DNA of 64,000 nt, taken from Lingula anatina (lineage: Eukaryota; Animalia; Brachiopoda). A model generated the notes under the pieces. It made no database searches and was not told where the DNA came from. It was given only the letters and a program-made list of their open reading frames with translations. This document shows, piece after piece, positions 26,524 to 29,500 of this stretch; within the stretch, counting starts at the first letter, position 1, and the number at the start of each line of letters is the position of its first letter. The translations under genes were made by a program, and so were the position numbers. Location of the stretch: assembly GCA_051362555.1 (NCBI GenBank), contig CM120646.1, forward strand, positions 13,020,001-13,084,000, read 5' to 3'.

Positions 26524-29500
26524 ATGGAGGCACACGCCTTATCGAAAATTGCAGAGCATGGGAGCACAGAACAGAACTGTAGAAATAAAGGAGCCTCCCA
26601 AACCCCTTCACCGCCATCCGGCGACAACTCTAACTGCTTGAGAGTGGGCATTCGTAACAGCACGGGGGCTGAAGGAACCGAGAACCATGCCTACGATAAC
26701 TCCGCCTGCGTTAACCACCGAACCACCGAACCCAACACCCCCTCCGCCCCAGTGCGAAATGAAACAGGGCAGAGTATGGCATACCGACGAATGTCGGATA
26801 GATCCTCCTTCTCCGGCAGTATGACGATAGTAGACAACAGGCGGCGGTTGTGTCGCAAGCGATGCTGTGCTGTCTGGCTTGTGATCGTGGCAATACTAGT
26901 GTTATTAATGTTCACAGCGGGGCTGGCTCTCTTCATTACCCTTAGATCTGAGACTCAAGGGAAAAACAACAGTTCACCCAGCACGGTACTTAAATGCTTA
27001 ATTATCATAATTATTATAGCTTACATGTACGTGTGAAAAAGTGAAATGCATGGGTATTGTTGTTGGTGAAATAAGCCATCAATCTGTGTCACCAAAAATT
27101 ACCTTTCTCTTTTCTTCAATGCCATTATTCAGAATCATTGAAGCAGAAGGAACTTGTATTTAACTGCGATTGTATAATATAATATAATATAATATAATAT
27201 AATATAATATAATATAATATAATATAATATAATATAGAGTCTAAAACATGTATGTACATCTACGTTTGATAATAACTTTAGACTCTGATCATTGTTTTAC
27301 CGATAATGTGAGAATGGAAGCACACATAAATTTTGCATTAAACTCCTCTTTTTCCCATGTTTTACCGATAATGTGAGAATGGAAGCACACATAAATTTTG
27401 CATTAAACACCTCTTTTTCCCATGTGTTGATAATATTGGTTCTAGACTCTCTACTCGCTCTTCTCCAGTTGAAGCAGAAGCAGAAGTTCAACGGATGTGA
27501 GGTGGAGCCTACCCCTAGAACAGACAGTGCTGCCACACCGTGGAAGGACGGGAAGGTTGTGCCGACCGCGAAAGTGTTCAGTTGCTCACGATATAAGGCT
27601 GATAGCAATTATGAAATCCACGTTCTAAGTATGGACTCTGCCGGGAAGGCTGGAGTCGAAGTGATGGTGTCGGTGAACGCCACTGGCCCCACAGTGAAGA
27701 ATGTTATGTTGGTGTTGATATCTGGTACAAAAACGTCTTGGGTTATCGATCCCGATGCGGCTGTTTCTAGGGTAAGTTGTATTCTCTCTCTCTCGCTCAA
27801 TACTGTAAGGTTGAGTAATTACAATGTTCAAATATTTCATACATACAAAGGTGTGTATTGACATGTATGAATTGGTGGCTTTGTGTTGATTCAATAGCCA
27901 AGTAAAAAATCCTAAAGTTATCGTATTTTGTGCTGAATCTTATATGCAATAAAATGTAGAAGAGTCCAGTCACATTTTATCTAGATAAACATTTGACCAC
28001 TCACTCACGTTTTTACCTAGATTATCAAATGTAGACGCGATGGAGTAAGGTCAGACATTAAGTTTGATAGCGTGATCTGTCCAGAAAAGGAAGACGTCGC
28101 CTCGGCCGTACTGCAGAACGTGGTGGCCACATACGGCCAGATTACGTCATACACATACACCGCCACATGCGACAAATGGACGCTTAAGGTGGGGGAGCAA
28201 GGTACGTCTGCTTTTTAAAAAGATATAGCAGGAAAACCATGAATCTTGTACGGATGTATGTAATGGGACATCCTCAAAACAAAAAATTAAGAAAAGCACA
28301 TAAAAGATCCTACTTTCATTTTACTTTCATTTTACAACGGCCAAAACAACGATTTAGCTTTCATTTTAAACTTGCCTATACAATGTCTTAACTATCCACC
28401 GATTAAACCAATGAAGGAAGATGTGCTACATGGGTTAAGTTTCCCTTTGTATAAAAAGGAACTTTATTCGAACTCTGTTGTCGACCTTTGCTTACTAGAT
28501 AAACTGAAACCCACTGCGCTGCCACCAACACAACCCGCAAGTGTCCTCCCCCCTGTACGCAACATCTCTGCGGTTCGGAACGTCCGACTGGCAGATATGT
28601 GGGAGCATGGTGCGGGGCATGTGCAGGTGCTGATAGGACGGCACTGGTACTACATCTGTGACCGCCTAATTGCCTCTCCTGATGCGCACGTGATATGCAA
28701 GACGCTAGGACTAGGGTAAGCTTGAGGCAGACGGATTTTTTTATTATATATGGTTGTACTAGTATGCATAGTTTAATGACAGAGAAGCTTGGGATATATT
28801 TTGCGCATGGTTTTAGATCTTTTGGGTTGTTTAGAATCCAAACCCTTGATTGTACACTCTGCTTTGTCATCTCAGCGTACATTTCGTGACGAAAAGATAT
28901 TGTAGTAATTCTAAATGTATATGCATAAATTGGACCTATAGTCAGATTACCAATATTTCGTCTTACAGCAATTTTTTACTAGAACCATTCTAGATATTTA
29001 AGTGCACTTGCCTCCAGTTTTATTCTCTTTTTCACGTATATTGCCATATCTGGATCAGATTTTTTTCAAAAGTAAGACTTGTTGTCAAGGAATCAAACGT
29101 TCAAGCCTCTTAAAACAGAAAAGAGAGTCTTTACCCACTGTTTTCTCATTCAAAATAAAGGTGAATAGAGGTCTTGCATCGATGGTAAAAAAGAACTGTT
29201 ATTCGCCGAAACCATGCGGTCCCTTGGAATACTTAACTGCTGCATTGCGTGGATATGGGGTGTTATGTCACAGATCTGATGTCCATTGAGATTTCTCATG
29301 GTAACAAACACAACGATCTCTCTTTGATTCTACATCAAAGGACACAATAAAGATATCCTCTCTTAATTCTAGCGTTCAAGCAGAGGTGTTGTTCCAATCG
29401 TTCTTCTCTATGGTGGATTCTACTCCATTGAGGTTGATACTGGGTTGTGTTGGCAACGAGACAAACGTCACCCAATGCCGCCATACGTTAGCCAACCCTT

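What the first reader, a model, noticed from the sequence alone, without database searches (positions are those of the whole stretch)
27469..28201. Betaglycan/endoglin orphan-domain-like module in an invertebrate type II scavenger receptor
Seen: two exons just after the TM encode [73 protein letters not shown]. From memory, the TGFBR3 N-terminus reads CELSP..SGC..QEVHVLNL..EVTLHL..KSVVFLLNSPHPLVWHL..LLNWARKEYGAVTSFTELKIARNIYIKVGED, colinear across ~150 aa. Known: orphan domains bind TGF-beta/BMP ligands and occur as a pair ahead of a ZP module in type I proteins. Inference: a single orphan-like domain with no ZP, in type II topology, fused to innate-recognition modules; relevant to the origin of the domain or to coupling of pattern recognition with TGF-beta family ligands.
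Basis: partly seen in the sequence, partly recalled or inferred. Interest (0 to 1): 0.8.

Follow-up and report, generated by a model that had tools for sequence, protein, structure and literature searches.

The report
Lone betaglycan-type domain in brachiopod receptor
A brachiopod gene for a large scavenger-type surface receptor carries one stand-alone copy of the domain that the vertebrate TGF-beta co-receptors betaglycan and endoglin carry as an intertwined pair; it likely shows the building block from which that pair evolved, but it probably does not bind growth factors in the vertebrate way.

Summary
Confirmed. Exons 27469-27771 and 28021-28201 encode a ~160-aa module just after the only transmembrane helix of an intact 28-exon Lingula gene (5 SRCR, 4 MAM, CBM14, C-type lectin). 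A profile of five invertebrate copies finds betaglycan first in the PDB (E 1e-11). The AlphaFold model (pLDDT 78) matches only betaglycan/endoglin orphan structures (Z 16, next unrelated 3.7-3.8). It is one repeat unit, with no second copy and no ZP module. It superposes on subdomain OD1 in chain order, so the vertebrate pair likely arose by tandem duplication plus strand exchange, not from the OR2-ordered ancestor proposed in 2017; polarity is not shown. Three further Lingula paralogues share the architecture, and two bivalve proteins carry separated copies among TSP1 repeats. The TGF-beta-coupling idea lacks support: betaglycan's site needs both subdomains and a loop aromatic that is missing here. 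A stalk or oligomerisation role is likelier but untested. The public records already carry an automatic Pfam hit (PF26060); ten literature searches listed no paper on stand-alone invertebrate copies. The scan noted putative bacterial relatives on other DNA (e1-2761009), which I could not confirm.

The parts
26524..26985 (+). First coding exon: ATG, about 113-aa N-terminal tail (predicted cytoplasmic), basic cluster, single transmembrane helix (about 26869-26943), short Ser/Thr linker
   Evidence: 154 of 154 aa identical to Lingula P0001
27469..27771 (+). Orphan-type unit, first exon (101 aa): first Cys at 27496, second Cys, and the first strands of the parallel beta body
28021..28201 (+). Orphan-type unit, second exon (60 aa + 1 nt): three more Cys, the single helix and the last two strands
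28499..29545 (+). Pro/Thr linker and SRCR domain 1 (exons 28499-28715, 29373-29545)
30412..31203 (+). SRCR domain 2 (exons 30412-30586, 31022-31203)
31708..33056 (+). MAM domain 1 (exons 31708-31875, 32473-32732, 32978-33056)
33883..34513 (+). SRCR domain 3 (exons 33883-34015, 34341-34513)
35033..36231 (+). MAM domain 2 (exons 35033-35179, 35624-35886, 36153-36231)
36567..37376 (+). SRCR domain 4 (exons 36567-36732, 37195-37376)
37736..41779 (+). MAM domains 3 and 4 (exons 37736-37849, 38405-38667, 39089-39167, 39450-39590, 40673-40911 with a GC donor, 41701-41779)
42136..43980 (+). SRCR domain 5 (exons 42136-42316, 43811-43980)
44563..44799 (+). CBM14 chitin-binding (peritrophin-A) domain exon
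   Evidence: Pfam CBM_14, E 2.5e-5, 24.7 bits against a cut-off of 22.1
45256..46240 (+). C-terminal C-type lectin domain (exons 45256-45427 and 45970 to the stop at 46240); whole protein about 1,760 aa

Best explanation
The two exons encode one complete repeat unit of the betaglycan/endoglin orphan fold, predicted to fold as a closed single domain, that likely serves as the membrane-proximal stalk or oligomerisation module of a type II glycan- and microbe-binding surface receptor rather than as a vertebrate-style TGF-beta clamp. Shown: homology, single copy, no ZP module, open 28-exon frame, and the same architecture in three other Lingula paralogues. Inferred topology: N-terminus inside; the unit next to the membrane; five SRCR and four MAM domains as a polyvalent binding and spacer arm; CBM14 and C-type lectin at the tip. 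Inferred role: the tip and the SRCRs capture glycans or microbes, as such modules do elsewhere (established knowledge). The orphan unit sits where type II scavenger receptors carry their neck; it would orient or cluster the arm, possibly through its odd fifth Cys or by exchanging its N-terminal strands with a second chain. Inferred history: the vertebrate orphan region is two such units in tandem whose N-terminal strands crossed over.
For: Profile of 5 invertebrate units, no vertebrate input: the four best of 177,635 PDB sequences are betaglycan (E 9.9e-12 to 4.2e-8), then endoglin at E 0.27. Lingula-only profile: the best four are betaglycan, E 4.3e-5 to 5.4e-3. AlphaFold with 6 sequences: pLDDT 78.3, pTM 0.81, parallel strands plus one long helix. 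Foldseek: 10 matches with E up to 0.001, all betaglycan or endoglin; next 0.26. VIA: Z 16.1, rmsd 2.7, 144 aligned to 9b9f. Against 48,161 representatives only 3 reach Z 5, all of this family; next 3.7. Model residues 6-161 map to zebrafish chain 30-359, i.e. N-terminal strands plus second repeat, which is OD1; against 7lbg (chain 47-191 matched) only model 31-163 aligns. One unit per Lingula protein and one in the window's six frames, 1572 ORFs scanned. In bivalves the full copies are 127 and 214 residues apart, between TSP1 and other modules, so the unit is a free module. Against a conserved growth-factor site: no aromatic in the loop equivalent to betaglycan's binding loop. The unit is also among the least conserved ectodomain modules between paralogues (34-35%, tied with MAM4; the others 41-59%). 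All 5 Lingula sequences have 5 Cys, an odd number.
Against: No functional data exist; the stalk role rests on position and on lack of support for the alternative. The fifth Cys is not in the same column in all paralogues (P0004 differs). The model was built for allele P0001 (96% identical) from a 6-row alignment. A monomer prediction will close the fold even if the real protein swaps strands, and the 2017 endoglin structure probably lay in AlphaFold's training set (recalled). An OR1-only human endoglin construct was not secreted (PMC5464963 section 9), so that order does not always fold alone. Repeated copies in a secreted-looking bivalve protein (P0009, no transmembrane helix) fit a ligand-binding module better than a stalk. 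Expression of this exact copy is not shown.
Confidence: 0.55

Rival explanations
1. The unit binds BMP/TGF-beta-family ligands, so the receptor couples pattern recognition to growth-factor capture as a co-receptor or decoy. It would use an endoglin-like edge surface on one domain, or a strand-swapped dimer that recreates betaglycan's arc.
For: The fold superposes on OD1, the subdomain that alone contacts BMP9 in endoglin (PMC5464963 section 10). Lingula has Bmp2/4 and Bmp5-8 (PMC4595640, passages). Bivalve copies have a Tyr just after the loop, though its register against betaglycan F250 depends on the alignment.
Against: Betaglycan and endoglin use different interfaces (PMC11865472 abstract and section 9), so ligand binding is not a fixed property of the fold. 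Betaglycan's site needs both subdomains and F250; the Lingula loop has no aromatic and varies in length between paralogues. There is no ZP module to give avidity. The unit is membrane-proximal here, not distal.
Confidence: 0.2
2. The unit is a general protein- or matrix-binding module with a partner outside the TGF-beta family; TGF-beta binding is a later deuterostome specialisation.
For: It was shuffled into unrelated architectures: type II SRCR/MAM/lectin receptors in Lingula, and TSP1-rich type I or secreted-looking proteins with 2-3 copies in bivalves. The human betaglycan orphan domain is also bound by a viral glycoprotein trimer (title of 7lbg).
Against: No partner is identified. The columns conserved across 8 units are mostly Cys, Gly, Trp and strand hydrophobics, which fits a fold core better than a shared surface site.
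Confidence: 0.23
3. On history only: the single units are secondary, cut out of an older tandem betaglycan-like gene and shuffled in lophotrochozoans, so they do not show the ancestral state.
For: Echinoderms are reported to have one TGFBR3 gene of similar structure (PMC10381214, passage), so the tandem form predates vertebrates. My sample is one brachiopod and two bivalves, and the tree has no outgroup.
Against: All 9 full invertebrate units begin with the first Cys, in repeat order; none has the OR2 order that excising a folded subdomain could give. The combined profile matches both betaglycan repeats. An unchecked note reports bacterial relatives (e1-2761009).
Confidence: 0.3
4. The likeness is chance or convergence.
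For: Single-sequence searches did not find betaglycan. The two-sequence bivalve profile found none of it either, and the Atlas gave no usable hit.
Against: Profile E 1e-11 and Z 16 with a wide gap to the next fold.
Confidence: 0.02

Closest known systems
Betaglycan (TGFBR3) orphan domain, subdomain OD1 (PDB 6mzn, 9b9f, 9fdy, 7lbg)
   Same: Fold (Z 15-16, rmsd 2.5-2.8 over 140-144 residues, 16-20% identity); conserved second Cys, Glu-x-His strand, Val-Leu strand, Trp, helix and terminal strands.
   Different: One unit instead of two intertwined ones; no inserted second domain; no ZP module; type II and membrane-proximal instead of type I and distal; binding-loop aromatic absent; additional Cys.
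Endoglin orphan region OR1/OR2 (PDB 5i04, 5hzw)
   Same: Fold (Z 11.9-12.2; Foldseek E 4.5e-5); two N-terminal Cys about 30 residues apart, as in each endoglin repeat (22-24 between C30/C53 and C182/C207, PMC5464963).
   Different: Only 12-13% identity, sequence E 0.27; single unit. In endoglin the disulfides run between repeats; in a lone unit they would be within it (inferred).
Pfam PF26060 (name recalled as the TGFBR3/endoglin-like N-terminal domain; no call printed the name)
   Same: Precomputed hit on P0001, P0002, P0006 and P0009, so the assignment already exists as automatic annotation.
   Different: Not listed for the paralogue P0004; no such family was returned by the local Pfam copy. 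The annotation says nothing on single versus paired units or on topology.
Class A scavenger receptors and invertebrate multi-SRCR / MAM / C-lectin receptors (DMBT1-like, MALRD-like)
   Same: Type II topology (class A); SRCR arrays with MAM, CBM14 and lectin modules; Lingula has an expanded SRCR set (113 genes, PMC10855680 passage).
   Different: No collagen neck, CUB, ZP or LDLa in the Pfam scans; the orphan-type unit takes the neck position. The database names DMBT1 and MAM-LDL of P0003 and P0002 do not fit the architecture.

Membership tests
Betaglycan/endoglin orphan fold (repeat unit) | Significant profile similarity to TGFBR3/ENG orphan repeats | tested here: met
   E 9.9e-12, 3.2e-11, Lingula-only 4.3e-5; endoglin only E 0.27 and not listed
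Betaglycan/endoglin orphan fold (repeat unit) | Parallel beta-helix-like body with a single alpha helix | tested here: met
   Predicted model; Z 16.1 and only 3 of 48,161 chains at Z 5 or more
Betaglycan/endoglin orphan fold (repeat unit) | Conserved pair of N-terminal Cys that forms the domain's disulfide | tested here: inconclusive
   Both Cys are invariant in 8 of 8 units and the second aligns with betaglycan's; the bond itself was not measured, as model coordinates were not on hand
Type III TGF-beta co-receptors (betaglycan, endoglin) | Two intertwined orphan repeats | tested here: not met
   One unit per Lingula protein and one in the window
Type III TGF-beta co-receptors (betaglycan, endoglin) | ZP module after the orphan region | tested here: not met
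   No ZP family in Pfam scans of P0001-P0004; the window's exons map one to one on P0002
Type III TGF-beta co-receptors (betaglycan, endoglin) | Type I topology: signal peptide, C-terminal helix and short tail | tested here: not met
   Single helix near the N-terminus and no signal-like start in the window copy; same single N-proximal helix in P0001-P0004
Type III TGF-beta co-receptors (betaglycan, endoglin) | Betaglycan ligand site: arc of OD1 and OD2 with loop residue F250 | tested here: not met
   No second subdomain; no aromatic in the equivalent loop of any Lingula copy in either alignment register
Type III TGF-beta co-receptors (betaglycan, endoglin) | Endoglin ligand site (Q270, I271, S278, F282) | not tested
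   The printed endoglin alignments stop before this region and VIA gives ranges only
Type III TGF-beta co-receptors (betaglycan, endoglin) | Binding of a TGF-beta-family ligand | not testable with these tools
   Needs a binding assay
Class A scavenger receptors | Type II topology with SRCR or C-lectin domain | tested here: met
   (topology inferred from hydropathy)
Class A scavenger receptors | Collagen-containing trimerising neck (definition recalled) | tested here: not met
   No collagen family in the Pfam scans; the neck position holds the orphan-type unit

The most novel reading that the evidence does not exclude
Stand-alone units in brachiopods and bivalves are the surviving unduplicated form of the betaglycan/endoglin orphan region. 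The vertebrate two-lobed ligand clamp arose when two such units in tandem exchanged their N-terminal strands. The Lingula receptor performs the same exchange between two chains, building a two-chain clamp that could hold a BMP-type dimer at the base of an innate-recognition receptor. The evolutionary half alone I put near 0.6; the probability given is for the whole.
Probability: 0.12. Interest if true: 0.85.

Novelty: new variant of a known kind. Interest (0 to 1): 0.56.

Why it matters
The orphan region was named for having no known relatives. The endoglin structure paper could point only to a distant likeness with tubulin cofactor C and proposed an OR2-ordered ancestor (PMC5464963 section 9). 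Natural single units in OR1 order make that question directly testable: one can solve a lone unit, ask whether it closes on itself or swaps strands, and root the two vertebrate repeats on it. They also show that the domain is a mobile extracellular module used outside TGF-beta co-receptors, which bears on when ligand binding was acquired. The weight is moderate. The domain call already exists as automatic annotation, no function is shown, and the strand-swap reading may already be in the 2019 betaglycan papers that I could not read.

Tried and rejected
No match or no gain: local Pfam on the exons and units gave no orphan-type family. Single-sequence PDB searches gave only chance hits (3ot2, a designed repeat protein 7ue2, antibody chains), rejected because the fold searches do not rank them. 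The ESM Atlas gave short unnamed bacterial clusters (best 0.91, recognition under the bar) and no usable hit for the whole unit. The single-sequence AlphaFold model was unusable (pLDDT 37) and was not searched. P0005, 1 of the 4 hits, is a bacterial Ig-repeat protein that scores nothing on the unit profile; I dropped it. The N-terminal copy of P0006 is degenerate (9 bits on A1; 73.8 bits on the bivalve profile) and was left out of the conservation count and the tree. The bivalve-only two-sequence profile did not find betaglycan. Searches for prokaryotic or viral relatives found none: metagenome contigs (149 pattern matches, none confirmed), genome contigs (39, none confirmed), phage records; all are weak for 20%-identity relatives. 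No whole genome is held for this window. No RNA holder was listed by index. Three of the four runs (X1, X4, X5) showed next to no depth on the exons. The two 2019 betaglycan papers (PMC6726503, PMC6920675) are not held. My note that bivalve Tyr equals betaglycan F250 was withdrawn because the register differs between alignments.

Full report
Observation. The window holds a + strand gene from 26524 to 46240. The two exons named in the finding lie at 27469-27771 and 28021-28201, with canonical ends and matching phases. A 28-exon model guided by the paralogue P0002 is open throughout and gives about 1,760 aa. The closest database proteins are from the brachiopod Lingula anatina: P0001 (96% over 624 aligned columns, a truncated model of what is likely the same gene) and P0002 (77% over the full length). 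The order of modules is: tail, one transmembrane helix, the unit in question, SRCR, SRCR, MAM, SRCR, MAM, SRCR, MAM, MAM, SRCR, CBM14, C-type lectin. Type II topology is inferred: no signal-like start, a single hydrophobic stretch behind a basic cluster, and only extracellular modules after it. RNA reads of 4 of 4 runs join the exons at the same introns. None is 99% alike and they bear P0002-type indels, so they vouch for the sister copy only. Three of four runs had next to no depth on the exons.

Relatives. An exhaustive single-sequence search of 1.84 billion representatives gave 4 hits: two more Lingula paralogues with the same type II architecture (P0003, P0004; 37-39%), one bivalve protein (P0006, Tegillarca) and one false hit (P0005, dropped). 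A profile search added P0009 from Mytilus. Each Lingula protein has one unit, and the window has only one in six frames. The bivalve proteins carry two full copies each, 214 and 127 residues apart among TSP1 repeats, and P0006 has a third, degenerate copy. The Lingula and bivalve profiles match each other at E 3e-13. The window's own spliced unit scores 45.6 bits on the bivalve-only profile, against at most 14.3 for shuffles.

Homology to betaglycan and endoglin. Single sequences do not reach them. The five-sequence invertebrate profile does: the best four PDB sequences are betaglycan orphan domains (E 9.9e-12 to 4.2e-8), each matched twice, once per repeat, and endoglin follows at E 0.27. With six sequences the four betaglycan chains stay on top and endoglin is not listed. 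The Lingula-only profile still finds betaglycan first (E 4.3e-5); the two-sequence bivalve profile does not. AlphaFold on the six-row alignment gives pLDDT 78.3 and pTM 0.81; without an alignment it failed. Foldseek returns 10 matches under E 0.001, all betaglycan or endoglin. VIA gives Z 16.1, rmsd 2.7 over 144 residues. Of 48,161 representative chains only three reach Z 5, all of this family, the next at 3.7. P0001, P0002, P0006 and P0009 carry a precomputed Pfam hit PF26060. I recall this as the TGFBR3/endoglin N-terminal family; no call printed the name.

Which piece it is. In endoglin, OR2 is inserted after the first two strands of OR1, and the conserved disulfides run C30-C207 and C53-C182 (PMC5464963, passages and section 9). 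In sequence terms there are thus two tandem repeats, each opening with two Cys, whose N-terminal strands complete the other repeat's domain. The Lingula unit is one such repeat. Its model maps to zebrafish betaglycan from residue 30 to 359, i.e. the N-terminal strands plus the body of the second repeat, which is OD1. Against 7lbg, where chain 47-191 is matched, the first 30 model residues stay unaligned (ranges give end points only). All 9 full invertebrate units start with the first Cys. The 2017 paper proposed duplication of an ancestral OR2 followed by circular permutation. Free units in OR1 order fit better with tandem duplication of an OR1-ordered unit and exchange of the N-terminal strands. 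This is inference. The tree of units has no outgroup, echinoderms are said to have a TGFBR3 of similar structure (PMC10381214, passage), and derivation of the single units from an older tandem gene is not excluded. I recall that the 2019 betaglycan papers may already speak of duplication with strand swapping; they were not held.

How it likely works. Betaglycan binds TGF-beta with an arc formed by both subdomains and their linker strands, with F49, L210, L213, F250 and D253 essential (PMC11865472 section 9). Endoglin uses a different surface on OR1, and OR2 alone does not bind BMP9 (PMC5464963 section 10). A lone unit cannot form the arc within one chain. The loop that aligns with betaglycan's binding loop has no aromatic residue in any Lingula copy and varies in length. 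The endoglin site could not be mapped. Between paralogues the unit is 34-35% identical, tied with MAM4 for the lowest in the ectodomain, against 41-59% for the other modules. It sits next to the membrane, where type II scavenger receptors have a neck (established knowledge), and every Lingula copy has an odd number of Cys. I therefore take a stalk or clustering role in a glycan- and microbe-binding receptor as the likeliest (0.55). Binding of some other partner gets 0.23 and binding of a BMP-type ligand 0.2.

Membership and novelty. The module belongs to the orphan-domain fold family; the protein is not a betaglycan or endoglin, since the tandem pair, the ZP module and type I topology are all absent. 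Ten literature searches listed no paper on stand-alone invertebrate copies; the library lacks most subscription papers. Papers seen: PMC5464963 (passages, sections 9 and 10, passages of supplement 1; supplement 2 was too large to read), PMC11865472 (abstract, section 9, passages), and passages of PMC10381214, PMC13407887, PMC4595640, PMC10855680 and PMC5569090; the rest only as search listings. An earlier, unchecked note of this scan reports a bacterial family that resembles the same domain (e1-2761009). My searches met no bacterial relative but are too weak to judge it. Verdict: a real and well-supported new variant of a known domain, of interest for the origin of the orphan region, with its function untested. 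Interest 0.56.

Noticed in passing
window 16145-20700 (+): Multi-exon gene whose ORFs read as V-type ATPase subunit A (recognised by eye; no family scan).
   Followed up: no
window 49206-51316 (+): Four exons of an F5/8 type C (discoidin) domain (Pfam E 6.3e-5 and 2.5e-3 for two of them), resembling the N-terminus of a discoidin domain receptor. I saw no further receptor or kinase exons before the opposite-strand gene at 54466, so it may be a short or truncated gene. My rough exon ends did not give an open frame.
   Followed up: partly
window 54466-64000 (-): Large opposite-strand gene with several MAM-like exons, fibronectin type II-like exons and a ~300-residue Thr/Pro mucin-like repeat at about 54500-55900.
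   Followed up: no
window 26524-46240 against P0001: The public model P0001 stops at 650 aa, while the window copy keeps an open frame over 28 exons with the full P0002-like architecture. One intron uses a GC donor (40911). The window lacks one codon at about 28054 that P0001, P0002 and the reads have.
   Followed up: yes
window 26115-26290, 39730-39960, 41195, 42880-43010: Short repeated elements, one with inverted ends, that attract many partial RNA reads from elsewhere in the genome; probably non-autonomous transposons.
   Followed up: no
P0006 (Tegillarca) and P0009 (Mytilus): Bivalve proteins that alternate TSP1, a small Cys-rich module and the orphan-type unit. Each full unit has three Cys and a further Cys 13-17 residues after its end. 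Not described in the papers my searches listed.
   Followed up: partly
RNA runs on window 26350-45600: The sister copy is read in X6-X9 but next to not at all in X1, X4 and X5, so expression looks sample-specific. X6 is stranded and fits the + strand.
   Followed up: no
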